Shown here: one piece after another, positions 30,041-46,602 of the stretch
Layout: each line of letters begins with the position of its first letter
How positions within the stretch are numbered: the stretch's first letter is position 1
Sequence record: PZ445427.1
Direction: 5' to 3' (one strand)
DNA length: 64,000 nucleotides
Origin: a phage
The notes under the pieces: generated by a model
What the model saw: only the letters and a program-made list of their open reading frames with translations
Told to the model about the DNA's origin: nothing
Database searches by the model: none
Translations under genes and position numbers: made by a program

Positions 30041-30742
30041 ATGAAATTCAAGCCCTTTGGTATGCTGGACATTGAATCTCTAGGTACTCCAGGAAATTGC
30101 GGTACTACTCATATTGCAATGCCTTCTTTCGCTTTTGTAGCGATGCACGGAATTGATAAAGATCCTGATCTGGTATTCGTTACTCTAGACGTTCAAGATC
30201 AGCTTAATGCGGGTGCTAAGGTAACTGCCTCTACTATTGCATTCTGGATGGATCAAGCTAAAAACAGTCCATCTGCGCTCCATATTATGGAGGCTCTAAA
30301 TGGTCGTAATCCTAAACTGATTGCCTTCCGTGATGGTAAGCATCACTGCACTAATGACGTAGGCTCTAATTATGCTGCCTTCTCTATGGCTCAGAACATT
30401 ATGGAATTGTCTCTAGGAGATAATGCTCTGTATTACGGCAATGGCCCAGAGTTTGATATGACAATCTACTCTGCAAATACGTTCCATGCCGGAACCCATG
30501 AAGAAATAGTTCCGTGGAAATTCTGGAACTTAGGTAACGTTCGATCTTTCCGTAATCAGTGGATGCAAGCTGGTTATAGCTATAAAGATCTAGAAGCCGA
30601 AGGTGCTAGCTGGGCAAAAGCTAAAATGGAAAAGATGGACACCATTCGTTATGGAATCTATCCTGTGAAGCATGATCCAGCATTCGATGCTTTAGTTGAA
30701 AGTTATTGTGTAGCCGTCATGATCGAAAAAATCAAAATTTGA
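30041..30742 (+). CDS. hypothetical protein (233 aa)
   Basis: ORF with SD AAAGGA. Confidence 0.6.
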   Translation: MKFKPFGMLDIESLGTPGNCGTTHIAMPSFAFVAMHGIDKDPDLVFVTLDVQDQLNAGAKVTASTIAFWMDQAKNSPSALHIMEALNGRNPKLIAFRDGKHHCTNDVGSNYAAFSMAQNIMELSLGDNALYYGNGPEFDMTIYSANTFHAGTHEEIVPWKFWNLGNVRSFRNQWMQAGYSYKDLEAEGASWAKAKMEKMDTIRYGIYPVKHDPAFDALVESYCVAVMIEKIKI

Positions 30743-30743
30743 T

Positions 30744-30772
30744 TTGCTTTCAGCTCCAAAATTCTGTATAAT
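30744..30772 (+). promoter_or_regulatory. promoter cassette (TTGCTT-N17-TATAAT)
   Basis: -35 begins right after upstream stop. Confidence 0.6.
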
Positions 30773-30812
30773 ATATTCATAAATTTGAGAGAACAACAAA
30801 AGGAAAACAATT

Positions 30813-32454: not shown

Positions 32455-32904
32455 ATGAAGGCAGCTTTGCTTTTAATAGCTGCCCTAACCTATAGCTTCA
32501 ATAGTCATGCGACCTACGACTCAAAGCAGATTGATTGCATTGCAAAAAATATCTACTTCGAAGCACGAGGTGAGGGCACTAAAGGAATGATCGCAGTTGC
32601 ACAGGTTACTAAAAACCGTGTTAACTCTGGTACTTTTCCTGATTCTTACTGTAAAGTAGTATATCAGTCTAACCAGTTCTCTTGGGTGGCCAAGAGACCA
32701 AAAGTTGATAAAACCGATGAGGCTTGGCAAGTTGCTAAGAATTTAGCTAGAGTGATATACTACGTTGATTTACCACAAGATCCAACACATGGAGCGTTAT
32801 ACTTCCATAGTGGTAAAGATAAACCGTACTGGACAAAGAAGTTTAAGAAAACAACGAAGATTCAAGGCCATACGTTCTACAAGCCTGTGGTTAAGAAAAC
32901 TTAA
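32455..32904 (+). CDS. SleB-like cell-wall hydrolase with signal peptide
   Basis: signal-like MKAALLLIAALTYSFNSHA; block NIYFEARGEG...AVAQVTKNRV typical of Hydrolase_2 family. Confidence 0.55.
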   Translation: MKAALLLIAALTYSFNSHATYDSKQIDCIAKNIYFEARGEGTKGMIAVAQVTKNRVNSGTFPDSYCKVVYQSNQFSWVAKRPKVDKTDEAWQVAKNLARVIYYVDLPQDPTHGALYFHSGKDKPYWTKKFKKTTKIQGHTFYKPVVKKT

Positions 32905-32912
32905 AAATTCGA

Positions 32913-32941
32913 TTGCTTAAAGCCTTAAATTTCTGTATAAT
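32913..32941 (+). promoter_or_regulatory. promoter cassette (TTGCTT-N17-TATAAT)
   Basis: followed by conserved leader and ATG 32973. Confidence 0.6.
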
Positions 32942-32972
32942 ACTTTCATAAATTAATGAGAGGAAGCGAAAT

Positions 32973-33143
32973 ATGAAATCAGTTGTAATTATTGGTGTTA
33001 ATACTCGTGGTATCCGTACTACGAAAACAGTTAAAACTACTAACGTTGCTGAAATTACTACAAACCCTAAGAAGTTTGATTTCGCTAAAGTCTCGGCAGT
33101 TATGACAGAACAATCTTTTAACCAAGCACTGGGAATTAAATAA
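32973..33143 (+). CDS. hypothetical small protein (56 aa)
   Basis: ATG after GAGAGGAAG; stop overlaps next start (TAATG). Confidence 0.4.
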   Translation: MKSVVIIGVNTRGIRTTKTVKTTNVAEITTNPKKFDFAKVSAVMTEQSFNQALGIK

Positions 33144-33586
33144 TGGAAGAGAATATTCTAAATGTTTTGCGTAGGGCTTTGCAGGAATCTAAGGTTGATG
33201 GTTCTGATAAAGAAGTAGCTAAAAGCTACCAGACCATAATCGGAGATCTTCAGCGTGTTGATAAAGACTTCATTACTTCTGAACAGTTTGTATCTTATCT
33301 AAAAGCTCAACTGAAAAGCATTAATCAGACGAAAGCTAAACTTCACGGTCAAGACCTTGATAATTATAGCTTGCAGTCTGCTCAGTATGAGTATATACTG
33401 AACAAATGGCTACAACAGTATCTGCCGCCTCAGTTATCTGATTCTGAGATTCGCAAATACTTTGCAGAATTAGTTAAGTTGAACCCTGGGATTACAAAAG
33501 GTATGCTGATGAAAGCGATTAAGGAAGAGTTTCCTGGTCGTTACGACGGTGGCATTGCTGCTCAGGTTGCTGGCGAATTTAATTAA
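33143..33586 (+). CDS. YqeY/GatB-C-terminal-domain-like protein
   Basis: 147 aa; blocks YLPPQLSDSEIRKYF and C-terminal GxxKGxLMKAIKEE...G resemble YqeY family. Confidence 0.45.
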   Translation: MEENILNVLRRALQESKVDGSDKEVAKSYQTIIGDLQRVDKDFITSEQFVSYLKAQLKSINQTKAKLHGQDLDNYSLQSAQYEYILNKWLQQYLPPQLSDSEIRKYFAELVKLNPGITKGMLMKAIKEEFPGRYDGGIAAQVAGEFN

Positions 33587-33594
33587 AAATTGAT

Positions 33595-33623
33595 TTGCTA
33601 AACGCCTCAAAATTCTGTATAAT
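33595..33623 (+). promoter_or_regulatory. promoter cassette driving an ORF-free region
   Basis: TTGCTA-N17-TATAAT at 33595-33600/33618-33623; no start codon within normal distance. Confidence 0.6.
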
Positions 33624-33629
33624 AGATTC

Positions 33630-34482
33630 ATAAATTAGAGAACAGCGAGCCGATTACGCTGAGTGAGTTTAGTGATTCCTACTAGGATAGCTATTCCACT
33701 GAATAGAGTCGGTGAGTTGGAGACTAGTAAGTACTCTGAGAGAGGCTACGAGCTAACGCTTATTGCTATTGATAGGGAACTGAAAATCTGCGGAAAACTC
33801 GGGAGCTGTCCCGAAATCTCGTAAACTCTTCTCTAGTTTATGTTAGTGGGGTGTCGAACTGACTTATGTGATAACACTGCCGTCCTAGTATAAACGGTAA
33901 TATCAAACCGTAACTGGTGGAAGATGCAGGTTCGAATCCTGCGGTCGGAAAGAATCAGATAACTCGGGCTTATACCGGATAAGCATTCGCTGCTGGAGTA
34001 CATACTATGACGGTTCAGGAGGTACGCCACCTGATCAGTATTAGGTTAGAATCGAAACAGCTAAACCACGAGGAAACCTGACGGCCTCAACCAAACTCGG
34101 AACTCGGGATCACTGCCTAGTGTGTGCCCCGTTTAACCTGAGACTAGGCATCCAGCTTCGCATCGAAAATCGGAGGTGCGATTCTAACAGACCGCGTGAA
34201 TATGAGAGTGGGAAACGCTGACATGAGAGATGTCACTAATGGTGCCCAATAGTACAGGTAATTCGCGATAATTCCTGTTGAGCGGCAGCAGTAGGCTGGG
34301 AGTCATGACCTAAGCCTAACCGAGTTCTTCACATACGGAGAACATAACCACAAAGTCACCCTGACTTAAACTGGAAGATATTGTCTGACGGAAGGGCTGC
34401 AGAGCTTAATCTGAGGGGGCTGACCCTACCTACCGTCGGGTATCTTTAAGAGCTTTTATAAGAGTTCTTAAAAATACCTAAA
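33630..34482 (+). ncRNA. candidate large structured non-coding RNA (about 850 nt), class unknown
   Basis: no plus-strand ORF >=60 aa; balanced composition unlike AT-rich spacers; hairpins (e.g. GCCTAGT...ACTAGGC); three AACTCGGG repeats; internal partial tRNA copy. Confidence 0.45.
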
Positions 34483-34557
34483 CGGGGTGTAGTCTAAGGG
34501 ATAGGCAGGAGTCTTCTAAATTCCTTTATGCAGGTTCGAATCCTGTCACCTCGGCCA
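34483..34557 (+). tRNA. tRNA-Arg (anticodon UCU)
   Basis: acceptor CGGGGTG/CACCTCG; anticodon stem GGAGT/ATTCC with loop CTTCTAA; T-arm GCAGG-TTCGAAT-CCTGT; CCA encoded. Confidence 0.7.
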
Positions 34558-34583
34558 ATTTTATTAACTGCTAGGAAAATAAA

Positions 34584-34784
34584 GTGAAAACACGATATAT
34601 AGTAAAAGTAGTAGGTGAACATTCACAAGTAAATACCACCGATGTTACAGCGCTAGCATTTGAAGTAGTCTCCGGTATAGTCATATTTCATAACGGAGAT
34701 ATCAAAGCTCCTGAATTTGCTGTGGATGCTAGCCTGTTTATTTCTGCAACTAAAGTAACTGTAGTAGCTAACTCTTCTAAATAA
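34584..34784 (+). CDS. hypothetical protein (66 aa)
   Basis: ORF with SD AGGAAAATAAAG. Confidence 0.4.
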   Translation: MKTRYIVKVVGEHSQVNTTDVTALAFEVVSGIVIFHNGDIKAPEFAVDASLFISATKVTVVANSSK

Positions 34785-34795
34785 TAAGGAAATAT

Positions 34796-35740
34796 ATGTT
34801 TACTAAAAACACTAAAGAACTGACTTCCGATCAAAAAGTAATTCGTACTATTAAACGTTGGGGTGTTGGTGCTGTAGTTGGTCTTGGCGCTCTTATTCTG
34901 GCTCTCAATTCCTACACAGTTGTTCAGGATGGTACTGTTAAGACTCAAACCTTCCTGGGTAAAGTTAGCCCGAACCCTGTACTGCCAGGCTTCCATATTG
35001 TTAACCCATTTGCTTCTTTTGATACTTTTAGTACGAAAGATATTTCTATGAAACTGGATAAACTTCAGGTTCCTAGCCAGGATAAGTTTAAGTCTACTGT
35101 TGACATTACCGTTATGTTGCAGTTTGATGGTGCTAAAGCTCCTATGAACCGTGTTAACGCAGGTACTCAGGATCAGGCTCTGAACAAGTACGTTGAAGAG
35201 AAGATGCTATCTACGATTCGTGAGTTTGGTAAGTCTGTACCAAAAGCACAAGATCTGTTCGACGCTAAGATTCAGGCTCAACTGCAAACTGCTATTCAGC
35301 AAGAAGTAGAGGAGTATGCGCGTCCTTATGGTTACACCGTTAAGCAAGTATTCCTTCAGGATATTACTCTGCCACCGGTAATCATGGAACAGGTACAGAA
35401 CACCAAAGTTCGTGAAGAACAAGTTAACGCTGCAAAAGCTGAACTGGCTCGTGTTGAACAAGAAGCACAACAGAAAGTTAAGCAAGCTGAGGCAGATCGT
35501 TCTGCTCGTGAAAACATGGCAGTAGCTAACGAACGTGACGCAGATGCTAAACTGTACGCAGCTAAGAAAGAAGCTGAAGCTAACGCCGCTCTGCAACGTA
35601 CCATTACTCCTGAAATGATTCGTTGGAAGCAGCTGGAAGTTGAAATGCTTCGTGCTGAAAAATACCAAGGTGGTGTACCGCAGACTGTTGTTGGTACTGG
35701 CTATGATGGTCAAATGATCATGGATATGCGTAACAAGTAA
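34796..35740 (+). CDS. SPFH/band-7 (HflK/C-, prohibitin-like) membrane protein
   Basis: 314 aa; N-terminal TM helix, SPFH-like core, long Ala/Glu/Gln-rich coiled-coil tail. Confidence 0.65.
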   Translation: MFTKNTKELTSDQKVIRTIKRWGVGAVVGLGALILALNSYTVVQDGTVKTQTFLGKVSPNPVLPGFHIVNPFASFDTFSTKDISMKLDKLQVPSQDKFKSTVDITVMLQFDGAKAPMNRVNAGTQDQALNKYVEEKMLSTIREFGKSVPKAQDLFDAKIQAQLQTAIQQEVEEYARPYGYTVKQVFLQDITLPPVIMEQVQNTKVREEQVNAAKAELARVEQEAQQKVKQAEADRSARENMAVANERDADAKLYAAKKEAEANAALQRTITPEMIRWKQLEVEMLRAEKYQGGVPQTVVGTGYDGQMIMDMRNK

Positions 35741-35763
35741 TAGTTACACGTAATCTTCGAACC

Positions 35764-35798
35764 AAGCCCGCGTTTCCTCCGAGAGCGCGGGCTTTTCT
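35764..35798 (+). terminator. rho-independent terminator
   Basis: GCCCGCG...CGCGGGC hairpin followed by TTTTCTGT. Confidence 0.6.
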
Positions 35799-35814
35799 GT
35801 ATTTAAGACAAAAG

Positions 35815-35850
35815 AAAAGCCCCTTACCTTTCGGCAGGGGCTTTGTTTTT
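35815..35850. terminator. bidirectional terminator between convergent transcription units
   Basis: GCCCCTT...AGGGGC hairpin flanked by T-runs on both strands. Confidence 0.6.
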
Positions 35851-36057
35851 GGTTTAGAACCATATACTCTTGTTACAGCAACCACCCATACGGGAGACCA
35901 ATCTTGACTGAAAATCTACTCTAGGGGGCAGGATAAGAGTAGGCTTAAAGGCAAACGGATTGAACACCGGTATTTGCGTAAACATTGCTGGAGAGCAACA
36001 ACGTGCTACAGGCATTGGGCAGCATGATGTAGGTTTTCTACAACACATATAAACTCC

Positions 36058-36477
36058 TTAGGATTTCTCCCCATTTTGCGCTTTTGCAACTTGACTTTGA
36101 CAGAAACTATTAAACTTACCCATAAGTGAAACAAGTTGCTTCCCATCCTCTGTTTTAGCGAAGTCTTCGAAAAGGGCTAGAACAGCCTGTCCTTCCGCAG
36201 ATACCTGCGGTTGTTGGGTTTGTTGAGTCATCTGCTGCTGTGGTTGCATTTGCTGAGGCATCATCTGCTGAGGCACCATTTGTTGCATTTGCATTTGCGG
36301 CTGCATTTGCATCTGGTTGATGTTTCCCTGCGGGTTTTGCAGGGAATTTTGCATTTGCTGTGCTTCTGCCAATCTCTGTTGCAACTGTTGTAAGTAGGGG
36401 TTATCCAGCCCCGGAACGGGCTGCTGGGAGCCCATACTTTGATTAAATCCGTTGTTCACAAAACCATATTTACTCAT
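36058..36477 (-). CDS. Gln/Met-rich low-complexity protein (139 aa)
   Basis: about 40% Q in central region (QMQPQMQMQQMVPQQMMPQQMQPQQQ); structured C-terminus. Confidence 0.55.
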   Translation of the reverse strand: MSKYGFVNNGFNQSMGSQQPVPGLDNPYLQQLQQRLAEAQQMQNSLQNPQGNINQMQMQPQMQMQQMVPQQMMPQQMQPQQQMTQQTQQPQVSAEGQAVLALFEDFAKTEDGKQLVSLMGKFNSFCQSQVAKAQNGEKS

Positions 36478-39940: not shown

Positions 39941-40034
39941 GGAAGATTAACCCTAAAGGTAAGGGAGCTGTTTGCTAAACAGCCAGTAACTGTGGAGACA
40001 CGGTGTGCCAGTTCGAATCTGGCATCTTCCTCCA
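39941..40034 (+). tRNA. tRNA-Ser (anticodon GCU), class II
   Basis: acceptor GGAAGAT/ATCTTCC; anticodon stem GCTGT/ACAGC loop TTGCTAA; long variable arm; T-arm GCCAG-TTCGAAT-CTGGC; CCA encoded. Confidence 0.75.
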
Positions 40035-40039
40035 AATTT

Positions 40040-40117
40040 GGTTCTCAAGCTCATTTGGTATGAGCCGTCGCCTCATAAGCGAAAGGTAGGTAGGTTCGAA
40101 TCCTCCGGGAGCCACCA
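40040..40117 (+). tRNA. tRNA with anticodon CAU (Met or Ile-lysidine type)
   Basis: acceptor GGTTCTC/GGGAGCC (2 G-U); anticodon loop CTCATAA; T-loop TTCGAAT; CCA encoded. Confidence 0.6.
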
Positions 40118-40134
40118 ATTAATTAGGAGACTAT

Positions 40135-40320
40135 ATGTCTAGATTCTACGAAATGAAGAAAGCATTAGAAGAATGTCGGTGTAAGGACTGTCATGGTGGT
40201 GGTAGGCAGGATGATGCAGAACCTGGGGATATTTTCTGTAGAGAATGGGAATGTCCTACATGTAAAGGTACTGGTATCAACCCTGAATATGCAATTTGTC
40301 TAGACATTGAGCGAGGCTAA
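40135..40320 (+). CDS. small Zn-ribbon protein (61 aa)
   Basis: CxxC...CxxC (CRCKDC / CPTCKG). Confidence 0.5.
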   Translation: MSRFYEMKKALEECRCKDCHGGGRQDDAEPGDIFCREWECPTCKGTGINPEYAICLDIERG

Positions 40321-40660
40321 GATGGATATTTTTACTACTCCGGCAATAAACCTTTTAGGTGTTGGCTTGTTCCAAGCTACGGTGTATCGTACCGATGATT
40401 CTACTGATGTGGTAACGTTCATCGTACCTGAGTTCTTCCTAGAAAAGTTCTTTGAAGAGTTTGAGCAGTTCCGTGAAGAACACAATGCTCATTCCGATAT
40501 GGAAGATCTAGCAGCTATGTTCCCTGCGGTTTACGGCTATATCTTTGAAGGTAATGGCCTAGATCTTAATAAATCTGAACTCGTTGAACTTAATTGGGGC
40601 ATCAATTTTGAGGTTGGCTCTCCATTCCCTCGATATTTCCAGGGTTTAGAGATTCGCTAA
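40307..40660 (+). CDS. hypothetical protein (117 aa)
   Basis: ORF. Confidence 0.5.
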   Translation: MSEAKMDIFTTPAINLLGVGLFQATVYRTDDSTDVVTFIVPEFFLEKFFEEFEQFREEHNAHSDMEDLAAMFPAVYGYIFEGNGLDLNKSELVELNWGINFEVGSPFPRYFQGLEIR

Positions 40661-40668
40661 GATTACAT

Positions 40669-40745
40669 GGGGGTGTAATCGAATTGGCATAGGTACTGGA
40701 CTTAAAATTCAGGTTTTGTGGGTTCGAATCCCACCACCCCTACCA
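40669..40745 (+). tRNA. tRNA, anticodon UAA (Leu-type anticodon but class I length)
   Basis: acceptor GGGGGTG/CACCCCT; anticodon stem CTGGA/TTCAG loop CTTAAAA; T-arm GTGGG-TTCGAAT-CCCAC; D-arm not resolved. Confidence 0.5.
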
Positions 40746-40896
40746 AATTAAGGAAATAAAATGAAAGCTATTAAGAAAGCACTACGTAAATTTATGTACT
40801 GTCGTTTCCATAGTATTAAGGCTTCAACTAATGGTACGACTTACGATCGCTATGATCCTAAGTTTGGCTTACATTCTAAATAACTGGAGATAATAA

Positions 40897-41103
40897 ATGG
40901 CTAATCCTGAAATTACTGCACAGCGCTTTATGCTGAAAGGTATTATTGCTGAAGCAGGCATGACAGAAGAAGTTGCAGATTTTCAAAAGCAGTTCCTAAA
41001 TATTCTCACTCAAGCCAAAGAGCTAGGAGAGAAAGAACATGGCGCGGCTATTATGGCAATCACATTGGTTGGGCTTGATCTGGCAGAAGAATCAGGAGTT
41101 TAA
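40897..41103 (+). CDS. hypothetical protein (68 aa)
   Basis: ORF. Confidence 0.45.
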   Translation: MANPEITAQRFMLKGIIAEAGMTEEVADFQKQFLNILTQAKELGEKEHGAAIMAITLVGLDLAEESGV

Positions 41104-41133
41104 CTCCTCCAAGCAGAAATTTTAAAAATGTAC

Positions 41134-41163
41134 TTGCTTTTTACTTAAGATTTCTGCTATAAT
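41134..41163 (+). promoter_or_regulatory. promoter cassette (TTGCTT-N18-TATAAT)
   Basis: upstream of 41194 gene. Confidence 0.55.
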
Positions 41164-41193
41164 AGTTATATAAATTGATGAAGGAGTTAACGA

Positions 41194-41469
41194 ATGTCAA
41201 AACGTGTTACTTCAACTGGTGTTGAAAGTGCTGTTTGTAAATCCTGGGGTGGCTGGGAAGGTGAGATTGAATGGCTTTATTTCTACGATGTAGAACTTCT
41301 GCCGGAAGTCAAAGCTAAATGTGTGGAAGCTGGTATGGCTCCTGATGCAAAGGCTGATATCGAAATCACCATGACTAAGCTAGAAGGTCGTGTAATTACG
41401 CTCAATGATGATTATGAAGAAGTGTTCGAGCTTCCATTCAAACTGAGTGTCACTCCTAGCTTCGAGTAA
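41194..41469 (+). CDS. hypothetical protein (91 aa)
   Basis: ORF after promoter. Confidence 0.5.
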   Translation: MSKRVTSTGVESAVCKSWGGWEGEIEWLYFYDVELLPEVKAKCVEAGMAPDAKADIEITMTKLEGRVITLNDDYEEVFELPFKLSVTPSFE

Positions 41470-41505
41470 CTGATATAGCACTGAGCAAGTTCTTTAAAAT
41501 TTGAC

Positions 41506-41534
41506 TTGCTCAGTCCTTCAAAACTTGATATAAT
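41506..41534 (+). promoter_or_regulatory. promoter cassette (TTGCTC-N17-TATAAT) driving tRNA-Tyr
   Basis: hexamers 41506-41511 / 41529-41534. Confidence 0.55.
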
Positions 41535-41599
41535 ATTTATCTAATTTGGAAACATATTTAAAAGTGTTTAAATGAGAATTTTTGAATACTTCTAAATAT

Positions 41600-41687
41600 G
41601 GGCGTTTATTCCGTAAGTGGTAGCGGAGGGGATTGTAAATCCCTGGTCATTGCGACTCGAGTGGTTCGACTCCATTAACGCCCACCA
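41600..41687 (+). tRNA. tRNA-Tyr (anticodon GUA), class II
   Basis: perfect acceptor GGGCGTT/AACGCCC; D-stem TCCG/CGGA; anticodon loop TTGTAAA; long variable arm; T-loop TTCGACT; CCA encoded. Confidence 0.75.
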
Positions 41688-41704
41688 AATTAAAGGTAAA
41701 GGAT

Positions 41705-42196
41705 ATGTATATTGATCGGATAATTCAAGAAGCTGCAAATAGGGGTATTATACAGTTGGGTTCACCCGCTGATATAAATAAAGATCTAATATTAGAAAGC
41801 CTCACATTTGGTACAGCTAACTTTGGTCGCGATAGTAATCGTCGATATAGCTTGAAGTTATCTGCACTATCTTTTATCAAGTATAACAAAAGTATTGGAG
41901 AAAAATCCAGCTGTGGTTTTATTTACGCAATAACTAACCCAGCTTGGGATAACTATGTAAAAATTGGTATGTCTTCTGATCCTAAAACAAGATTAAGAAA
42001 TTACCAAACCTATTCTCCTTTACGTGATTATAAGTTAATACATTGGTCATTCTGGTTTAATGCTAGAGAAGCGGAGAAAATGCTTCATAATAGCTTTCCT
42101 GAACGGCTTAACGAATGGGTAGTGTTAGACAGAGGTGTAGACGAAATACTTTCCGAGTTTAACAATTTATCCAATAAGCAATTTAAGTCCTGTTAG
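41705..42196 (+). CDS. T5orf172/GIY-YIG-like domain protein (putative homing-endonuclease-type)
   Basis: 163 aa; block GFIYAITNPAWDNYVKIGMS...RL..Y resembles GIY-YIG/T5orf172 core; 3' end overlaps tRNA-Glu by about 10 nt. Confidence 0.55.
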   Translation: MYIDRIIQEAANRGIIQLGSPADINKDLILESLTFGTANFGRDSNRRYSLKLSALSFIKYNKSIGEKSSCGFIYAITNPAWDNYVKIGMSSDPKTRLRNYQTYSPLRDYKLIHWSFWFNAREAEKMLHNSFPERLNEWVVLDRGVDEILSEFNNLSNKQFKSC

Positions 42197-42263
42197 ACAA
42201 ACTGGTAAAGTCACTACCCTTTCAAGGTAGGATTTGCGGGTTCGATCCCCGCACAGGACGCCA
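42187..42263 (+). tRNA. tRNA-Glu (anticodon UUC)
   Basis: acceptor GTCCTGT/ACAGGAC; anticodon stem CTACC/GGTAG loop CTTTCAA; T-arm GCGGG-TTCGATC-CCCGC; CCA encoded. Confidence 0.7.
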
Positions 42264-42272
42264 ATTTCTGCA

Positions 42273-42348
42273 TTCCTAGAGTGTTACTGGACAGCATGTC
42301 GGTCTCCAAAACCGTACGGTCTAGGTTCGAGTCCTAGTAGGTTTGCCA
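42273..42348 (+). other. tRNA-like element with Trp-type anticodon arm (CCA); possible degenerate tRNA
   Basis: anticodon arm CGGT-CTCCAAA-ACCG and T-arm CTAGG-TTCGAGT-CCTAG are canonical, but acceptor pairing is only 5/7. Confidence 0.35.
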
Positions 42349-42354
42349 ATATTT

Positions 42355-42429
42355 GCACCTTTAGCTGAGATGGATTAGCGCTTGCCTGAAGAGCTTGAGA
42401 GGTTCGTTCAATTCGAACAGGGTGCACCA
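42355..42429 (+). tRNA. tRNA, anticodon probably GAA (Phe); CUG not excluded
   Basis: acceptor GCACCTT/AGGGTGC; D-stem GCTG/TAGC; anticodon loop CTGAAGA with weak stem; T-arm GTTCG-TTCAATT-CGAAC; CCA encoded. Confidence 0.55.
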
Positions 42430-42448
42430 ATTAATCAATATAAGGCTT

Positions 42449-42829
42449 ATGGAAACAAAAACGTGTAATAAGTGTGGAAATACATTTCCCTTGAGTACGG
42501 ACTACTTCTTTAAAAGTGGTAAGCAAGTCTCAGGAAAACAAAAATGGAAACCTATGTGCAAACAATGCGAAAGTATATCTCGTATTGAATACTATAATAA
42601 TACAATTGCCGAGGTTTTTCCTGACTTACATTGTGCTATTTGTGGGTATAACAAGTGTCCACAGGCGATTGATTTCCATCATTTAGAGCAGGATGATAAA
42701 GAGTTTAATATTAGTGAAGCTAGACGGGGTACGTTTAACAAAGAAAAACTAATAGAAGAGCTTGAGAAATGTGTACCTTTATGCTGTAGGTGTCACAGAG
42801 AATATCATGCTGGAGTTATTGAGCTTTAA
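42449..42829 (+). CDS. HNH homing endonuclease
   Basis: HNH motif DFHHLEQDDKEFN...CCRCHREYH with Zn-binding Cys pairs; start placed after upstream tRNA. Confidence 0.75.
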   Translation: METKTCNKCGNTFPLSTDYFFKSGKQVSGKQKWKPMCKQCESISRIEYYNNTIAEVFPDLHCAICGYNKCPQAIDFHHLEQDDKEFNISEARRGTFNKEKLIEELEKCVPLCCRCHREYHAGVIEL

Positions 42830-42843
42830 ACTGAAAAATGTAG

Positions 42844-42872
42844 TTGCTTAAATCCTTAAAGTTCTGTATAAT
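42844..42872 (+). promoter_or_regulatory. promoter cassette (TTGCTT-N17-TATAAT)
   Basis: upstream of 42901 gene. Confidence 0.6.
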
Positions 42873-42900
42873 TATTATATAAATTGAACTGGAGAACTAG

Positions 42901-43089
42901 ATGAAAGCACCTAAACCGAAATTAGTTAAGTTCGACTGCTGTGACACTGAAATCTTATTTACTAAGTTTGGTGAATTTAAGATGTGTGAATGTGGAACAT
43001 GTGGTTATGATCATGGTGATGGATATTATTGCAGAACCCTCGGGCCTTCTGAACTAATCCACTTCTCATGGCCGGAAAGTAAAGAATAA
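42901..43089 (+). CDS. small Cys-rich protein (62 aa)
   Basis: CC...CEC..C...C pattern. Confidence 0.45.
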   Translation: MKAPKPKLVKFDCCDTEILFTKFGEFKMCECGTCGYDHGDGYYCRTLGPSELIHFSWPESKE

Positions 43090-43091
43090 TA

Positions 43092-43167
43092 CGACCGTTG
43101 GCTGAATGGCTTAGGCGGAGGCCTGCAAAACCTCCTTATGTGAGTTCGAATCTCATGCGGTCGTCCA
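43092..43167 (+). tRNA. tRNA-Cys (anticodon GCA)
   Basis: acceptor CGACCGT/GCGGTCG; anticodon loop CTGCAAA (stem GAGGC/ACCTC with one mismatch); T-arm GTGAG-TTCGAAT-CTCAT; CCA encoded. Confidence 0.6.
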
Positions 43168-43174
43168 AATTTTA

Positions 43175-43257
43175 GGGTCGTTAGCCAAGCGGTTTGGCGG
43201 TGGACTGTTAATCCATGTCGAAAGACAACGTAGGTTCGAATCCTACACGGCCCGCCA
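43175..43257 (+). tRNA. tRNA, anticodon GUU (Asn-type) with unusually long variable arm
   Basis: acceptor GGGTCGT/ACGGCCC; anticodon stem GTGGA/TCCAT loop CTGTTAA; 13-nt variable hairpin; T-arm GTAGG-TTCGAAT-CCTAC; CCA encoded. Confidence 0.55.
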
Positions 43258-43360
43258 TATTCTGTGTAGAGTTAAGTAAACCGGTAGCCAACCAGCTATC
43301 ATTGCTGATATCGAATTCAGTCACAGATACCATTTTTCATTAACAACTGAGGAAATAGAT

Positions 43361-43546
43361 ATGACAACTCGTGCAATTGCTCGACTAGAAGCTGATCGTG
43401 ATAGTCTGATTAATAATATTAAGGTTTGGGATCAAGAAATTGAAAACCAAAAACTGACATTAATTCAAGATATGCAACAACAGAATGCCCGTCGTGAAGC
43501 TCTAAAAGAGGTTGAGGAAGCTATCGAAAAACTCAAAACTGAGTAA
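43361..43546 (+). CDS. hypothetical coiled-coil protein (61 aa)
   Basis: ORF with SD GAGGAAATAG. Confidence 0.45.
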   Translation: MTTRAIARLEADRDSLINNIKVWDQEIENQKLTLIQDMQQQNARREALKEVEEAIEKLKTE

Positions 43547-43554
43547 ATAAATTA

Positions 43555-43632
43555 TGCGATCGGGGCTGGCTTGGTAATGGTACTCCCCTGTCACGGGAGA
43601 GAATGTGGGTTCGAATCCCATCGGTCGCGCCA
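43555..43632 (+). tRNA. tRNA-Asp (anticodon GUC)
   Basis: acceptor GCGATCC/CGGTCGC (6/7); anticodon stem CTCCC/GGGAG loop CTGTCAC; T-arm GTGGG-TTCGAAT-CCCAT; CCA encoded. Confidence 0.65.
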
Positions 43633-43638
43633 AATAAT

Positions 43639-43714
43639 ACATCCATAGCTCAATGGTTAGAGCTACCGCCTCTTAAGCGGAGGGTTCTAGGTTCAAGTCC
43701 TAGTGGGTGTACCA
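43639..43714 (+). tRNA. tRNA-Lys (anticodon CUU)
   Basis: acceptor ACATCCA/TGGGTGT; D-stem GCTC/GAGC; anticodon loop CTCTTAA; T-arm CTAGG-TTCAAGT-CCTAG; CCA encoded. Confidence 0.65.
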
Positions 43715-43794
43715 AACATCAGAGCAGCGTGATGTACTGCAAAGACCCAAAGTCCGGGGTGGACTTCTTGATTCAAAGGAGCAGGCATTAATTA

Positions 43795-43905
43795 TCATTC
43801 TAGCGTGGTGGAGAGGGGACACCAGCTTGCCGAGGGTAGAAGCTCGTTCGATTCGAGTGAAAGAATGGTTCTCGTAAATCCGCACAAGTGATAGTAGGTT
43901 CAAGT
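43795..43905 (+). other. unresolved tRNA-like structured segment
   Basis: contains T-arm-like GCTCG-TTCGATT-CGAGT and GTAGG-TTCAAGT-CCTAC but no acceptor pairing at tRNA spacing. Confidence 0.3.
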
Positions 43906-43927
43906 CCTACCTAGATTGACTCATTAT

Positions 43928-44001
43928 GCGTTCGTAGTTAAAAGGTATAATTTTTGGTTGCCAACCAGAAGTTGAGGGTTCGATTCCCTCCGACCGCACC
44001 A
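43928..44001 (+). tRNA. tRNA-Gly (anticodon GCC)
   Basis: acceptor GCGTTCG/CGACCGC (6/7); D-stem GTTA/TAAT; anticodon stem TTTGG/CCAGA loop TTGCCAA; T-arm GAGGG-TTCGATT-CCCTC; CCA encoded. Confidence 0.65.
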
Positions 44002-44249
44002 AATTTAGGTTTCTGCTTCCTAGAGAACTGACTCCTAGATAAACAAGGCGATGAGTTTCCGGCCGGTTCTAGTCGCTGAAAATCCTCCCGACCAGGTAGG
44101 TGTAAGTAAACGAAAGTTTACTTATTAAGTAAGTCCGACACATCGGCGGGTGTGTTCTAGTACTTAAAGAAGGTCTCGCAAACTTTCTCGCTAGCATGAG
44201 TTGATAGCTCGGTGACTTACCTAATAAGTAAATTTATTAAAAAATGTAG

Positions 44250-44278
44250 TTGCTATTTAGCTTAATTCTCTGTATAAT
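44250..44278 (+). promoter_or_regulatory. promoter cassette driving tRNA-Pro/CAU operon
   Basis: TTGCTA-N17-TATAAT. Confidence 0.6.
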
Positions 44279-44310
44279 ATATTTTATAAAGTGAGTTAAC
44301 AAAGAATATT

Positions 44311-44388
44311 CTCCGTGTAGCTCAGTTTGGCCAGAGCGTTTCGTTTGGGGCGATAGGGTCGGGGGTTCAAATCCTCCCACGGAGACCA
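44311..44388 (+). tRNA. tRNA-Pro (anticodon UGG)
   Basis: perfect acceptor CTCCGTG/CACGGAG; D-stem GCTC/GAGC; anticodon loop TTTGGGG; T-arm GGGGG-TTCAAAT-CCTCC; CCA encoded. Confidence 0.7.
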
Positions 44389-44394
44389 AACAAT

Positions 44395-44472
44395 TGCGGG
44401 TTAGATCTCTGGTAGAGATCGCTAGTCTCATAAGCTAGAAAGAGGTAGGTTCGATTCCTACACCCGCTTCCA
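44395..44472 (+). tRNA. tRNA with anticodon CAU (second copy; Met/fMet/Ile2 type)
   Basis: acceptor TGCGGGT/ACCCGCT (1:72 mismatch, as in initiator tRNAs); D-stem GATC/GATC; anticodon stem CTAGT/GCTAG loop CTCATAA; CCA encoded. Confidence 0.65.
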
Positions 44473-44493
44473 ATTTAATAGAAGGATTTCGAA

Positions 44494-44658
44494 ATGAAAT
44501 TATTTCGTTTAAAAGTAAGTGATCTACGTTCTAGCAAAGATCGTAAGAAGTATCCACTAGCCCATTACGGTAAAGATGAAAATGAAGTGATGGCGGAATT
44601 TGGTATTAATCATCCTTACTTGAAAGTTCACTCTATTAAAGAAGTATACATGTATTAA
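44494..44658 (+). CDS. hypothetical small protein (54 aa)
   Basis: ATG after AAGGATTTCGAA; below 60-aa threshold of ORF track. Confidence 0.35.
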   Translation: MKLFRLKVSDLRSSKDRKKYPLAHYGKDENEVMAEFGINHPYLKVHSIKEVYMY

Positions 44659-44660
44659 AT

Positions 44661-44738
44661 TGACCGTTAACTCAACTGGATAAGAGTACCGAGCTTTTAC
44701 CTCGTAGGTTCTGGGTTCGAATCCCAGACGGTCAACCA
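44661..44738 (+). tRNA. tRNA-Lys (anticodon UUU)
   Basis: perfect acceptor TGACCGT/ACGGTCA; D-stem ACTC/GAGT; anticodon loop CTTTTAC; T-arm CTGGG-TTCGAAT-CCCAG; CCA encoded. Confidence 0.65.
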
Positions 44739-44755
44739 ATTTAAAGGAATTTGTT

Positions 44756-45073
44756 ATGAATATTAACAAAGTTCTAGGAACAATATCAGAAATGTCTGGT
44801 AGAGCTGGAAAACGCTTTACTGAATTATGTATTAAAAATCAAAAAGTACCAGAACATCAATGTCATTATTGTCGAGACTGTGAACAATACCATGAAATGT
44901 GTGTGGTTGAAGATTGGGTCTGGGATCAGATAAGAAAAGAACAATCCAAAGATATTGTTCTATGTTTTACTTGTATGGAACGACGTTTAGGACGTAAAAT
45001 TACTCTTAAAGATCTTAAACATGTTCCCTGTAACGCTCCTTACTTCATTGGTTTTAGAATGGAGAGATTTTGA
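44756..45073 (+). CDS. Cys-rich protein (105 aa)
   Basis: CHYCRDC and CFTC clusters (Zn-binding likely). Confidence 0.5.
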   Translation: MNINKVLGTISEMSGRAGKRFTELCIKNQKVPEHQCHYCRDCEQYHEMCVVEDWVWDQIRKEQSKDIVLCFTCMERRLGRKITLKDLKHVPCNAPYFIGFRMERF

Positions 45074-45206
45074 TGATAATCTGGTTTTACTTAATGAAAC
45101 AAAAAGTCAAGCAGTACAACGTATTTTCTGCTGATTTTACTATTGGAATGTTCTTAGCGGGATTATGTGAGTTTCTGTTTGAAGCCTACATCATAGGAAG
45201 TCTTTT

Positions 45207-45280
45207 GCTCGGTTAGTTTAATGGGAGAACCCCGTCTTTACACGGCGGTTGCGATAGTTCGATTCTATCACCGAGTACCA
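45207..45280 (+). tRNA. tRNA-Val (anticodon UAC)
   Basis: acceptor GCTCGGT/ACCGAGT; anticodon stem CCGTC/GGCGG loop TTTACAC; T-arm GATAG-TTCGATT-CTATC; CCA encoded. Confidence 0.65.
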
Positions 45281-45299
45281 ATTAACTCAAAATAAGGAA

Positions 45300-45659
45300 T
45301 TGCAAATGCAATTATCAAGCAAGGTTCAAGGCTATTTCGGGCATGTAACAATGGAGTTCGCTATCTCTAAAGGTTGGGACTTCGAACAAGATCTAGCTGA
45401 ATTCTACAAAGATATTGATCTGAATGTACCGTACATAGGACTCTCTACTGGTCAAGAGATCACAGAAGGCGATGTGTTCAAGGCAAGTCAAGGTGAGGTA
45501 ACACCTAGTTTTGCCGAGTTCTGGTTAGGTATTACTTTGAAAGAAGATGCACCGGATGGTGGTGTGGTTATGCAGAGTATGCACTCTGGAAGCTCTGACT
45601 ACCTTTTCGTTAGTGACGTTAAGGAAATACAAGAAATCTGCAAAAATGTACTTGCTTGA
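45300..45659 (+). CDS. hypothetical protein (119 aa)
   Basis: ORF. Confidence 0.5.
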   Translation: MQMQLSSKVQGYFGHVTMEFAISKGWDFEQDLAEFYKDIDLNVPYIGLSTGQEITEGDVFKASQGEVTPSFAEFWLGITLKEDAPDGGVVMQSMHSGSSDYLFVSDVKEIQEICKNVLA

Positions 45660-45680
45660 TGCTTAATTTCTTGTTATAAT
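45652..45680 (+). promoter_or_regulatory. promoter cassette followed by about 245-nt leader
   Basis: TTGCTT-N17-TATAAT; next ATG only at 45924. Confidence 0.55.
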
Positions 45681-46187: not shown

Positions 46188-46196
46188 ATAAATTTT

Positions 46197-46275: not shown

Positions 46276-46281
46276 AAATTC

Positions 46282-46357: not shown

Positions 46358-46376
46358 AACAAATTAAGGAAATAAT

Positions 46377-46595: not shown

Positions 46596-46602
46596 ATAAA
46601 AT

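What the first reader, a model, noticed from the sequence alone, without database searches (positions are those of the whole stretch)
33595..34557. Promoter-driven ~850-nt ORF-free structured region ending in tRNA-Arg: candidate large non-coding RNA
Seen in sequence: a canonical promoter cassette (33595-33623) is followed by no usable start codon and about 850 nt with no plus-strand ORF of 60 aa or more, in a genome where genes are otherwise packed with 0-60-nt spacers. Composition is balanced rather than AT-rich, hairpins are abundant, and AACTCGGG occurs three times. The region ends exactly at tRNA-Arg(UCU) (34483-34557). It also contains a partial copy of that tRNA: the same GGGGTGT 5' end (33848-33854) and an identical 18-nt T-arm ATGCAGGTTCGAATCCTG (33924-33941 versus 34528-34545). 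Inference: either a large structured RNA co-transcribed with a tRNA (large ornate RNAs such as GOLLD/ROOL are known to sit beside phage tRNA genes), or the remnant of an element that inserted into tRNA-Arg and duplicated its ends.
Basis: partly seen in the sequence, partly recalled or inferred. Interest (0 to 1): 0.85.

Follow-up and report, generated by a model that had tools for sequence, protein, structure and literature searches.

The report
Phage T5-family large structured RNA (rnaX)
This gene-free stretch encodes a roughly 850-base, intricately folded non-coding RNA that T5-like phages make next to a tRNA gene; databases already list it as "RNAX, function unknown", yet nobody seems to have described its fold, which resembles the giant self-assembling phage RNAs GOLLD and ROOL.

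Summary
A near-consensus early promoter (33595-33623) drives about 853 nt with no usable ORF, ending at tRNA-Arg(UCU). The window is a T5-like phage (Epseptimavirus, identical to Seabear/Stitch here).

The region is the ortholog of rnaX, annotated in RefSeq T5 as "RNAX, stable RNA with unknown functions". Its existence is therefore already known. No Rfam family matches it, and no paper in the searchable library describes it.

Homologs occur at the same position in at least seven Demerecviridae genera, at 640-1290 nt. They are modular and strongly structured. Two domains tested quantitatively are 93-94% paired against 32-50% in shifted controls, with 16 and 8 doubly changed pairs.

The RNA carries a tRNA-shaped module without an anticodon loop at the tip of a long helix. 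One apical loop holds a different 6-8-nt palindrome in each lineage, the pattern taken as the signature of self-kissing loops in GOLLD and OLE.

It is not a GOLLD/ROOL member, a tmRNA, an intron or an integration scar. Function is unknown. My best guess (about 35%) is a self-associating RNA scaffold that displays a tRNA mimic.

The parts
33595..33623 (+). Early sigma-70 promoter (TTGCTA-17-TATAAT). The inferred transcription start is A33630.
   Evidence: Conserved in all homologs. Annotated as promoter P16-17 in T5 and phage 5.
33630..34482 (+). RNAX (rnaX ortholog), about 853 nt of non-coding RNA.
   Evidence: 75% identity to the annotated rnaX of phage 5/T5. No ORF and no codon periodicity. 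Fold z = -3.4 on the plus strand only.
33630..33841 (+). Optional 5' domain A. It is closed by helix P1 (33630-33642 with 33829-33841). It contains S1 (33643-47/33657-61), S2 (33649-53/33709-13, compatible with a pseudoknot) and a hairpin at 33799-33814.
   Evidence: Domain A is absent in T5 proper and the Shivani class, with P1 kept as a hairpin (compensatory AGAGA/UCUCU to AGAUG/CAUCU). An HNH endonuclease gene replaces it in PMBT31/CitS1. S1 and S2 switch G-C/C-G to A-U in DU_PP_V, My1, Proteus and Providencia. The hairpin takes the forms UCGGGA/UCCCGA, GAGG/CCUC, GUGG/CCAC and CUCAGU/ACUGAG.
33859..33967 (+). Domain B. A long interrupted helix (33859-33872 with 33954-33967) carries an exchangeable 'slot'.
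   Evidence: 12 pairs, 7 with changes on both sides, 99.6% paired. RNAalifold recovers it independently. It also covaries in Proteus and Providencia.
33879..33950 (+). tRNA-like module in the slot. It has an acceptor stem, a D loop with GG and a T arm GCAGG-UUCGAAU-CCUGC, but only a 3-bp stem where the anticodon arm should be.
   Evidence: Rfam tRNA 29.3 bits (gathering score 29), with the anticodon arm unaligned. ARAGORN does not call it. Acceptor, T and 'AC' stems covary. Replaced by other small structures in the Sds2/1-29 class and in Proteus.
33968..33984 (+). Conserved hairpin GCUUAU-ACCGG-AUAAGC.
   Evidence: 6 pairs, 2 with changes on both sides.
33985..34207 (+). Central mosaic region, including the conserved D hairpin UCGCA/UGCGA (34158-34181). 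Its overall structure is unresolved.
   Evidence: Modules are swapped between lineages. The D hairpin stem takes the forms UCGCA/UGCGA, UCACA/UGUGA and UUACAUA/UAUGUAA.
34208..34351 (+). Multi-helix junction E1, closed by GUGG (34208-11) with CCAC (34348-51).
   Evidence: The same closing helix appears in the minimum-energy fold of most of the 34 variants folded; exceptions include T5 proper, DU_PP_V and two Klebsiella-phage variants. It is sequence-invariant, so it cannot be tested by covariation.
34254..34278 (+). Hairpin La (ACAGG/CCUGU). Its apical loop holds the palindrome UCGCGA (34263-34268). Candidate symmetric kissing loop.
   Evidence: The palindrome differs by lineage: UCGCGA, CGCGCG, CUCGAG, CCGCGG, GUGCGCAC, GUGCAC, UGAUCA. 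Chance per loop is 0.07-0.29. Each occurs once per RNA in 11 of 12 RNAs checked (twice in My1), and palindromes are not generally enriched. My1 and Providencia keep the palindrome while neighbouring bases change.
34292..34318 (+). Hairpin Lb. A two-tier stem presents the invariant 8-nt loop AGUCAUGA (34301-34308).
   Evidence: The outer stem has at least 8 different sequences, all paired. My1 has AGUCAUGC, which gives 8/8 pairs with the downstream GCAUGACU. The apical part is deleted in Providencia PR1.
34354..34366 (+). AGUCA-CCC-UGACU motif. It forms either a local hairpin or the pairing partner of loop Lb.
   Evidence: Conserved in model R1 hits. Complementary to Lb (direct reading; My1/DU_PP_V comparison).
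34387..34437 (+). Three-way junction: Ea (34387-95 with 34429-37), Eb (34396-34405), linker CUUAAU, Ec (34414-34427).
   Evidence: Covariance-model alignment of 30 sequences. Ea has 4 of 8 pairs changed on both sides, Eb 1 of 2, Ec 3 of 4.
34439..34478 (+). Terminal 16-bp (17 positions, one internal mismatch) AU-rich hairpin with a nearly invariant sequence.
   Evidence: 97% paired. Only one-sided changes occur (A-U/G-U, C-G/U-G). These keep pairing in plus-strand RNA but not in the complement. No T-run follows, so it is not an intrinsic terminator.
34483..34557 (+). tRNA-Arg(UCU) with encoded CCA. Its 5' processing would create the RNAX 3' end.
   Evidence: The T5 annotation places the rnaX end at the tRNA 5' end.

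Best explanation
The region is the Epseptimavirus ortholog of T5 rnaX. It is a roughly 853-nt non-coding RNA that folds into a conserved, modular, multi-domain structure.

**Shown**
- It is homologous to, and syntenic with, the annotated rnaX.
- A conserved strong promoter precedes it.
- It lacks coding signal.
- Many helices are supported by compensatory changes on the plus strand.
- A tRNA-shaped module without an anticodon loop sits at the tip of a long helix.
- One apical loop stays palindromic while its sequence changes between lineages.

**Inferred**
- Host RNA polymerase transcribes it early and abundantly, together with tRNA-Arg and two downstream genes.
- RNase P cleavage at tRNA-Arg releases its 3' end. 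RNase P may also nick at the internal tRNA-like module.

**Most likely mode of action (about 35%)**
It acts as an RNA-only scaffold, like GOLLD/ROOL. Two or more copies join through the palindromic loop La (a symmetric kissing loop). The assembly displays a tRNA mimic to host tRNA-recognising machinery.

Identity as a structured rnaX RNA is about 95% certain. The mechanism is a hypothesis.
For: **Homology and synteny**
- blastn finds 533 phage records. The phage 5 match is annotated as rnaX.
- RefSeq T5 carries rnaX/T5s08, 719 nt, between promoter P16-17 and tRNA-Arg.
- The same position, after the YqeY-like gene and before tRNA-Arg, holds a homolog in Tequintavirus, Epseptimavirus, Hongcheonvirus, Myunavirus, Novosibvirus and Priunavirus, and next to the endolysin gene in Sugarlandvirus.

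**Structure**
- Domain B: 92.6% paired against 32-42% in slid controls, and 16 doubly changed pairs against 1-4. RNAalifold recovers it independently.
- 3' domain: 94.3% paired against 33-50%, and 8 doubly changed pairs against 2-4.
- Further covarying helices appear.
- G-U-tolerant changes point to plus-strand RNA.
- Fold z-score is -3.4 on the plus strand and -0.9 on the minus strand.

**Non-coding**
-.

**Transcription unit**
- There is no plus-strand terminator before 35764.

**Self-association**
- Loop La holds seven different palindromes at the homologous loop.
- The same criterion was used for GOLLD and OLE symmetric kissing loops (PMC12286853).

**RNase P precedent**
- A tRNA-like module with a 7-bp acceptor stem is cleaved by RNase P in M. 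smegmatis YrlA (PMC4201824).
Against: - I had no expression data. 'Stable RNA' rests on the GenBank annotation alone.
- No function is known, and no paper was found.
- Large parts are dispensable or swapped: domain A, the tRNA-like module, and loop Lb in Providencia. The RNA may therefore be non-essential.
- The palindrome argument rests on about 4-6 independent lineages. It also depends on my assignment of homologous hairpins. Per-loop chance is 0.07-0.29.
- My1 suggests loop Lb pairs within the molecule rather than between molecules.
- The central region is unresolved.
- The covariance-model alignment leans toward its own structure.
Confidence: 0.7

Rival explanations
1. tRNA-mimic decoy or anti-defence RNA. 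The RNA exists to present a tRNA-shaped module (elbow plus acceptor stem) that titrates or misdirects a host factor recognising tRNA shape. Candidates are a tRNA-targeting defence nuclease, RNase P, the CCA-adding enzyme or a modification enzyme. The rest of the RNA would serve as a stabilising scaffold.
For: - The tRNA-like acceptor and T stems are kept by compensatory changes, while the anticodon arm is degenerate.
- T5 encodes about 25 tRNAs plus several other annotated 'tRNA-like stable RNAs'.
- T5 tRNAs are reported to counter tRNA-cleaving defences (cited in PMC10644984).
- Rapid modular exchange and homing-endonuclease activity at the locus fit an arms race.
Against: - The module has no anticodon loop, which is the target of the known anticodon nucleases.
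- It is replaced by non-tRNA structures in the Sds2/1-29 class and is not detectable in Proteus.
- It does not explain about 700 nt of other conserved structure.
- No defence system is linked to it.
Confidence: 0.2
2. Long structured 5' leader, a cis-acting element. The RNA has no function in trans. It would control stability, timing or processing of the co-transcribed tRNA-Arg(UCU) and the downstream orf66/band-7 genes.
For: - One promoter serves the unit, with no terminator until 35764-35794.
- tRNA-Arg(UCU) directly follows in most phages.
Against: - ORFs of 169 aa (Epseptimavirus) or two to three small ORFs (Sugarlandvirus, Providencia) separate it from tRNA-Arg in many phages. The RNA is unchanged in those cases.
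- An 850-nt multi-domain structure is far beyond known tRNA leaders.
- It is annotated as a stable species.
Confidence: 0.1
3. Non-functional graveyard. The region would be decayed tRNA genes and homing-endonuclease scars that are merely transcribed.
For: - A degenerate tRNA lies inside.
- Homing endonuclease genes insert here.
- Lengths vary from 640 to 1290 nt.
- One T5 record annotates only a pseudo-tRNA here.
Against: - Motifs are invariant across at least seven genera.
- Dozens of compensatory pair changes occur.
- The promoter is conserved.
- Decay would not preserve pairing.
Confidence: 0.03
4. Integration or insertion scar. A mobile element inserted into tRNA-Arg and duplicated its ends.
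For: An 18-nt T-arm identity with tRNA-Arg.
Against: - The identity is specific to this lineage. T5-type homologs have GUAGG/CCUAC in the internal element while tRNA-Arg is unchanged.
- No integrase is present.
- The element is embedded in a covarying helix.
- The GGGGTGT motif is part of another conserved motif.
Confidence: 0.02
5. Divergent member of the GOLLD or ROOL family, or another Rfam family such as tmRNA, RNase P RNA, an intron or a Y RNA.
For: Phage-encoded, next to tRNA genes, similar in size, with a variable 5' and a conserved 3' part.
Against: cmscan of 32500-36000 against all 4227 Rfam 15 families at E <= 1 gives only tRNA hits and terminator-like noise. The same holds for the Proteus homolog. 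ARAGORN finds no tmRNA.
Confidence: 0.02

Closest known systems
T5 rnaX / RNAX (NC_005859 T5s08, 40848-41566; also AJ604531 phage 5)
   Same: - Same gene: 75% identity over 75% of the length.
- Same promoter type (P16-17).
- Same neighbours: the YqeY-like gene upstream and tRNA-Arg(UCU) downstream.
   Different: - The window copy has the 5' domain A, which T5 proper lacks (853 nt against 719 nt).
- T5 proper has an 85-nt insertion flanked by a 23-nt direct repeat.
- The database entry says only 'stable RNA with unknown functions'. No structure or function is recorded.
GOLLD and ROOL (large ornate phage/prophage RNAs; Kretsch et al. 2025, PMC12286853)
   Same: - Phage-encoded and next to tRNA genes.
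- 0.6-1.3 kb with many conserved helices and likely pseudoknots.
- Conserved 3' part and variable 5' part.
- A tRNA or tRNA-like element inside a variable region.
- A conserved apical loop whose palindrome covaries, as in the GOLLD and OLE symmetric kissing loops.
   Different: - No sequence or structure match to either Rfam model.
- Hosts are Enterobacterales phages of one family.
- Oligomerisation has not been shown.
Phage T4 stable RNAs C and D (species 1 and 2) and the other T5 stable RNAs (RNAI, III, IV, 1, 2, 2H, 3)
   Same: They are stable, non-tRNA products of phage tRNA gene clusters with unknown function, and some are tRNA-like (T5 annotation). The T4 case is from my own knowledge.
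   Different: Those RNAs are 70-170 nt. RNAX is 5-10 times larger and has multiple domains.
tRNA-like modules in longer RNAs processed by RNase P (bacterial YrlA Y RNA, PMC4201824; MALAT1/mascRNA, from my own knowledge)
   Same: An L-shaped tRNA mimic with T arm, D loop and acceptor stem but no decoding function. A 7-position acceptor stem makes RNase P cleavage plausible.
   Different: - In YrlA the RNA ends leave from the anticodon side and bind Ro60. Here they leave from the acceptor side into a 12-bp helix.
- There is no Rfam YrlA match and no rsr gene nearby.

Membership tests
T5 rnaX (RNAX stable RNA) | Sequence homology to the annotated rnaX gene | tested here: met
   blastn shows 75% identity over 75% of the query to the AJ604531 rnaX feature, with the T5 class aligned in blocks.
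T5 rnaX (RNAX stable RNA) | Position between the YqeY-like gene with a P16-17-type promoter and tRNA-Arg(UCU) | tested here: met
T5 rnaX (RNAX stable RNA) | Accumulates as a stable transcript in infected cells | not testable with these tools
   Only the GenBank note supports this. No paper was found.
GOLLD (Rfam) / ROOL (Rfam) | Match to the family covariance model | tested here: not met
   cmscan against all Rfam 15 families at E <= 1 gives no hit for either. The same holds for the Proteus homolog.
GOLLD (Rfam) / ROOL (Rfam) | Large (>500 nt) multi-helix RNA encoded by phages next to tRNA genes | tested here: met
GOLLD (Rfam) / ROOL (Rfam) | Homo-oligomeric assembly through symmetric kissing loops | tested here: inconclusive
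   The La loop palindrome changes sequence but stays palindromic in 7 lineages. There is no physical test.
tRNA (RF00005), for the internal element 33879-33950 | Score at or above the Rfam gathering threshold | tested here: met
   29.3 bits against a threshold of 29, so borderline.
tRNA (RF00005), for the internal element 33879-33950 | 5-bp anticodon stem with a 7-nt anticodon loop | tested here: not met
   The stem is 3 bp with a 6-nt loop here. Other lineages have 3-6 bp stems with 3-8-nt loops or a long extended hairpin. ARAGORN does not call it.
tRNA (RF00005), for the internal element 33879-33950 | Acceptor and T stems maintained by covariation | tested here: met
   The acceptor stem has 4 of 7 pairs doubly changed, and the T stem 2 of 5.
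tmRNA | tRNA-like domain formed by the 5' and 3' ends, plus a tag reading frame | tested here: not met
   ARAGORN finds no tmRNA. There is no Rfam tmRNA hit.
Bacterial Y RNA (YrlA) | Rfam model match, a Ro60-binding helix, and linkage to the rsr gene | tested here: not met
   No Rfam hit. No rsr is among the neighbouring genes. The topology differs.
Group I/II intron, RNase P RNA, 6S RNA, self-cleaving ribozymes | Rfam model match | tested here: not met
   No hits at E <= 1.
Integration scar in a tRNA gene | A duplicated tRNA 3' segment that tracks the target tRNA sequence, with an integrase nearby | tested here: not met
   The internal T stem covaries independently of tRNA-Arg. No integrase lies in the neighbourhood.

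The most novel reading that the evidence does not exclude
RNAX may be a third, independent class of phage 'ornate' RNAs that, like GOLLD and ROOL, self-assemble without protein. Copies would join through the lineage-specific palindromic loop La. The assembly would display a tRNA-shaped module at the tip of a long helix.

Because RNAX sits in the model phage T5 and its E. coli and Salmonella relatives, the biological role of such RNA assemblies would become genetically testable for the first time.
Probability: 0.3. Interest if true: 0.85.

Novelty: already known. Interest (0 to 1): 0.6.

Why it matters
The gene itself is not new. RefSeq T5 has listed rnaX as a stable RNA of unknown function since 2004. 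What appears to be undescribed is the following:

- It is a conserved, covariation-supported, 0.64-1.3 kb modular structure.
- It is present in more than 500 sequenced T5-like phages, spanning at least seven genera.
- It carries a tRNA mimic.
- One of its loops behaves like the self-kissing loops of GOLLD and OLE.

The function of large ornate bacterial and phage RNAs is an open question. Their known hosts are hard to work with genetically. T5-like phages infect E. coli K-12 and Salmonella and can be engineered, and their hosts have temperature-sensitive RNase P mutants and defined defence-system collections. A specialist could therefore test processing, oligomerisation and fitness effects directly.

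There is also a practical point. Current annotations of many T5-like genomes place spurious small 'hypothetical proteins' or pseudo-tRNAs here. An Rfam family would correct that.

Tried and rejected
- **Rfam.** I scanned at a permissive threshold over 32500-36000 and over the Proteus homolog. Only tRNA hits and terminator-like noise appeared.
- **Metagenome scan.** I used the terminal-hairpin pattern. It returned 7 T5-like contigs and 4 chance hits in AT-rich coding DNA, so no new lineages.
- **Genome scan.** I searched 100,044 bacterial and archaeal species with the domain-B motif and found 0 hits. There is therefore no host-encoded relative at that stringency.
- **IMG/VR scans.** Three motifs returned only isolate-type T5-like genomes.
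- **Band-7 protein as a synteny anchor.** It is shared with T4-like and other phages, so it was uninformative.
- **Model R1 on distant phages.** It found nothing significant in Proteus, Vibrio or the partial My1 locus that lacks the 3' domain. The Proteus and Providencia homologs were then recognised by motif and synteny instead.
- **Vibrio phage Thalassa.** It has the YqeY-like gene but no RNAX-sized gap.
- **Literature.** Seven searches found no paper on T5 RNAX.
- **Global alignment.** MAFFT plus RNAalifold on whole RNAs failed because modules differ between lineages. I worked domain by domain instead.
- **The AACTCGGG triple as a motif.** Rejected, because the copies are strands of different helices and are absent in T5-type homologs.
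- **An RNP with the YqeY-like protein.** Weakened, because Sugarlandvirus has RNAX next to the endolysin gene with no YqeY-like gene adjacent.
- **An intramolecular partner for loop La.** The conserved CCGCG motif near 34193 does not track the palindrome across lineages (reasoned).
- **The central region (33985-34207).** I could not fold it convincingly.
Full report
**What the window is.** ARAGORN finds 29 tRNA genes in the window. The finding's region is 100% identical to Salmonella phages Seabear and Stitch, which belong to Demerecviridae, genus Epseptimavirus. The window is therefore a T5-like phage.

**The observation.** Every sequence-level claim checks out.
- The only sigma-70-type promoter match in 32800-36200 is TTGCTA-17-TATAAT at 33595-33623.
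- Its initial transcribed sequence puts the start at A33630.
- There is no plus-strand ORF above 53 aa, and each plus frame has 19-24 stops.
- GC is 0.463, against 0.403 for the window.
- AACTCGGG occurs three times in 64 kb, all of them here.
- The 18-nt T-arm string occurs twice.
- tRNA-Arg(UCU) lies at 34483-34557 and encodes its CCA.
- The plus strand folds better than shuffled sequence (z = -3.4). The minus strand does not (z = -0.9).

**It is an annotated gene.** A sensitive blastn finds matches in 533 phage records. One is the phage 5 tRNA-region record AJ604531. There the homologous 785 nt are annotated as misc_RNA 'rnaX, RNAX: stable RNA with unknown functions', driven by 'promoter P16-17' and directly followed by tRNA-Arg. 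RefSeq T5 (NC_005859) carries the same feature, rnaX/T5s08, 719 nt. It sits alongside seven smaller 'stable RNAs', several of them called tRNA-like. The other T5 record annotates only a pseudo-tRNA here. Seabear annotates two small 'hypothetical proteins' inside the region. I found no paper on RNAX in the held library. No Rfam 15 family other than tRNA matches at E <= 1.

**Distribution and modularity.** I collected 52 distinct homologs of 640-1290 nt. More divergent ones turned up in three further genera:
- Pectobacterium phage My1;
- Proteus Novosibvirus;
- Providencia Priunavirus.

In almost all of them the RNA follows the YqeY-like gene and precedes tRNA-Arg. A scan of 100,044 bacterial and archaeal genomes with a domain-B motif found nothing. 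A metagenome scan found only T5-like contigs.

The RNA is built of modules.
- The 5' domain A (33630-33841) is absent from T5 proper and the Shivani class, where only its closing helix P1 remains as a hairpin.
- An HNH homing-endonuclease gene replaces domain A in PMBT31, CitS1 and related phages.
- The central region is a mosaic.
- Sugarlandvirus and some Epseptimaviruses carry an extra module of about 190 nt.
- In Proteus and Providencia the modules occur in a different order.

**Evidence that it is a structured RNA.** Two domains were tested quantitatively.

*Domain B (33845-33985).* This used a MAFFT alignment of 23 distinct sequences.
- My proposed structure is 92.6% paired, against 32-42% when partners are slid by 1-3 columns.
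- It has 16 pairs changed on both sides, against 1-4 in the slid controls.
- No shuffle out of 500 reaches the observed value on four of the five measures.
- RNAalifold, given no structure, recovers the same helices: 31 pairs, 16 of them with compensatory changes.

*3' domain (34354-34479).* I built a covariance model from window-type sequences and used it to align 30 sequences from all classes.
- The alignment is 94.3% paired, against 33-50% in slid controls.
- It has 8 doubly changed pairs, all in the three-way junction.
- The terminal 16-bp hairpin changes only by G-U/A-U and C-G/U-G steps. These preserve pairing in plus-strand RNA but not in the complement.

*Other helices with several compensatory forms.*
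- The stem presenting the AGUCAUGA loop has at least 8 different sequences.
- S1 and S2 in domain A covary.
- The hairpin at 33799-33814 takes four forms.
- The stem of hairpin La covaries between DU_PP_V and My1.
- The domain-B helix covaries again in Proteus and Providencia.

Substitutions between homologs show no three-base periodicity (p = 0.23-0.96). ORFs of 70 aa or more are absent from most homologs, apart from the inserted endonuclease gene.

**Notable anatomy.**

*The tRNA-like module (33879-33950).*
- It sits at the tip of the 12-bp domain-B helix (33859-72 with 33954-67).
- It reaches the Rfam tRNA threshold only just (29.3 bits against 29).
- It keeps an acceptor stem, a D loop with GG and a canonical T arm.
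- Its 'anticodon arm' is a 3-bp stem. In other lineages that arm is a 3-6-bp stem or a long hairpin. It never has a 7-nt loop.
- In the Sds2/1-29 class the whole cloverleaf is replaced by another small stem-enclosed element. In Proteus and Providencia the slot holds a plain hairpin.
- The 18-nt identity with tRNA-Arg is lineage-specific. T5-type RNAs have GUAGG/CCUAC in this element while tRNA-Arg is unchanged.

*Loop Lb.*
- The invariant 8-nt loop AGUCAUGA (34301-34308) is complementary to the downstream AGUCA-CCC-UGACU motif (34354-34366).
- My1 has AGUCAUGC. This breaks the palindrome but gives 8/8 pairs with the downstream GCAUGACU.
- I therefore read Lb as part of a long-range pairing within the molecule.

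*Loop La (hairpin 34254-34278).* This loop lies 21-27 nt upstream of the Lb hairpin (76 nt upstream in Proteus). It carries a different Watson-Crick palindrome of at least 6 nt in each lineage:

| Lineage | Palindrome |
|---|---|
| Window and T5-like phages | UCGCGA |
| T5 proper | CGCGCG |
| 1-29, YZU-L1 | CUCGAG |
| Sugarlandvirus | CCGCGG |
| phiR2-01, CitS1 | GUGCGCAC |
| DU_PP_V, My1 | GUGCAC |
| Proteus, Providencia | UGAUCA |

- Composition-preserving shuffles of each loop give a palindrome of this length with probability 0.07-0.29.
- The palindrome occurs once per RNA in 11 of the 12 RNAs checked; My1 has two copies of GUGCAC.
- Palindromic 6-mers are not enriched overall (9 seen against about 13 expected).
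- In My1 and Providencia the palindrome is kept while neighbouring loop and stem bases change.

A loop that must stay self-complementary while its sequence drifts is the criterion Kretsch et al. used to support intermolecular symmetric kissing loops in GOLLD and OLE (PMC12286853).

**How it most likely works.**

*Shown:* a conserved promoter, a conserved structured plus-strand RNA, and no terminator before 35764.

*Inferred:*
- Host RNA polymerase makes a transcript covering RNAX, tRNA-Arg, orf66 and the band-7 gene.
- RNase P cleavage at tRNA-Arg creates the RNAX 3' end, as the T5 annotation implies.
- The internal module, with its 7-position acceptor stem, may also be an RNase P substrate. 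M. smegmatis YrlA is a precedent (PMC4201824).

*Function:* my preferred hypothesis (about 35%) is an RNA-only scaffold that dimerises or oligomerises through loop La and presents a tRNA mimic. The main alternatives are a tRNA-shape decoy against host factors (about 20%) and a purely cis-acting leader (about 10%). A graveyard of decayed genes, an integration scar, coding potential, and membership of GOLLD, ROOL, tmRNA or intron families are each contradicted by a test run here.

**Comparison with known systems.** It is the same gene as T5 rnaX.

It resembles GOLLD and ROOL in these respects:
- phage origin;
- tRNA neighbourhood;
- size;
- a variable 5' and a conserved 3' part;
- an embedded tRNA-like element;
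- a covarying palindromic loop.

It fails their Rfam models, so it is not a member of either family. It also recalls the small stable RNAs of the T4 and T5 tRNA clusters, and tRNA-like modules in YrlA and MALAT1. It differs from all of these in size and topology.

**Verdict.** This is a real feature. Its existence is already recorded in databases, so by that criterion it is not novel. Its structure, breadth across Demerecviridae, modular evolution and possible self-association do not appear to have been described. Interest is moderate to high for RNA and phage specialists, because it sits in a tractable model phage.

Noticed in passing
window 33663-33824 and 34120-34221: The Seabear GenBank record annotates small 'hypothetical proteins' with ribosome-binding sites inside the RNA: a 50-aa one that begins 9 nt inside the first stretch, and a 33-aa one matching the second. 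They lie in covarying helices and are absent from homologs, so they are probably spurious gene calls.
   Followed up: partly
window about 30741-30800 and 32905-32955 (and 33587-33644): The promoter cassette upstream of RNAX is one of at least three copies, 82-83% identical, within 3 kb. One T5 record annotates the copy in front of rnaX as 'repeat c'.
   Followed up: no
window 39941-49408 (tRNA cluster): RefSeq T5 annotates seven further 'stable RNAs with unknown functions' between its tRNA genes: RNAI, III, IV, 1, 2, 2H and 3, of 73-172 nt, several of them 'tRNA-like'. Orthologs probably lie in the gaps of this window's tRNA cluster. I did not look.
   Followed up: no
L005 1544-2026 (PMBT31); also CitS1 and vB_SenS-3: A 160-aa HNH_3 homing endonuclease gene sits directly after the RNAX promoter and replaces the 5' domain A. 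The rest of the RNA is intact.
   Followed up: partly
L008 1890-2399 (phage 1-29); also PMBT31, YZU-L1, CitS1 and ende: A 169-aa ORF with no Pfam match is inserted exactly between the invariant terminal hairpin of RNAX and tRNA-Arg in several Epseptimaviruses. It is possibly another mobile gene that uses the conserved hairpin as its target.
   Followed up: no
L026/L057 (phage T5 proper) and L078: T5 proper carries an insertion of about 85 nt in the 3' domain. It is flanked by a direct repeat of about 23 nt, AGUCACCUUGAC(U/A)UAAACUGGAA, which looks like a target-site duplication.
   Followed up: no
L101 3462-4224 (Proteus phage 2) and L106 about 2966-3660 (Providencia PR1): The divergent homologs have the same motifs in a different order: domain A, then a T-arm-like hairpin, loop La, the Lb stem and finally the domain-B helix. 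They lack the AU-rich terminal hairpin. PR1 also lacks the AGUCAUGA loop and has an annotated minus-strand ORF over the RNA.
   Followed up: partly
window 35764-35794: A strong GC-rich hairpin with T-runs on both sides is annotated in T5 as an efficient bidirectional terminator. It explains the weak Rfam hits to anti-hemB and to the Thr and Leu leaders.
   Followed up: yes
window 33143-33586 and 32973-33143: The upstream gene is a weak YqeY/GatB-tail-like protein (25.6 bits, below the Pfam cutoff of 27). Its usual annotation, 'tRNA amidotransferase' or 'recombination-related exonuclease', is unsupported. The gene before it belongs to DUF7616. The YqeY-like gene lies directly beside RNAX in Tequintavirus, Epseptimavirus, Myunavirus and Novosibvirus, with one small ORF intervening in Hongcheonvirus and Priunavirus, but is not adjacent in Sugarlandvirus.
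   Followed up: partly
phage records OR848805 and OR848534 ('Listeria phage LM 4-14-1'), and Campylobacter-labelled records: Short records labelled as Listeria or Campylobacter phages contain T5-like RNAX and YqeY sequence. This is probably contamination or mislabelling.
   Followed up: no
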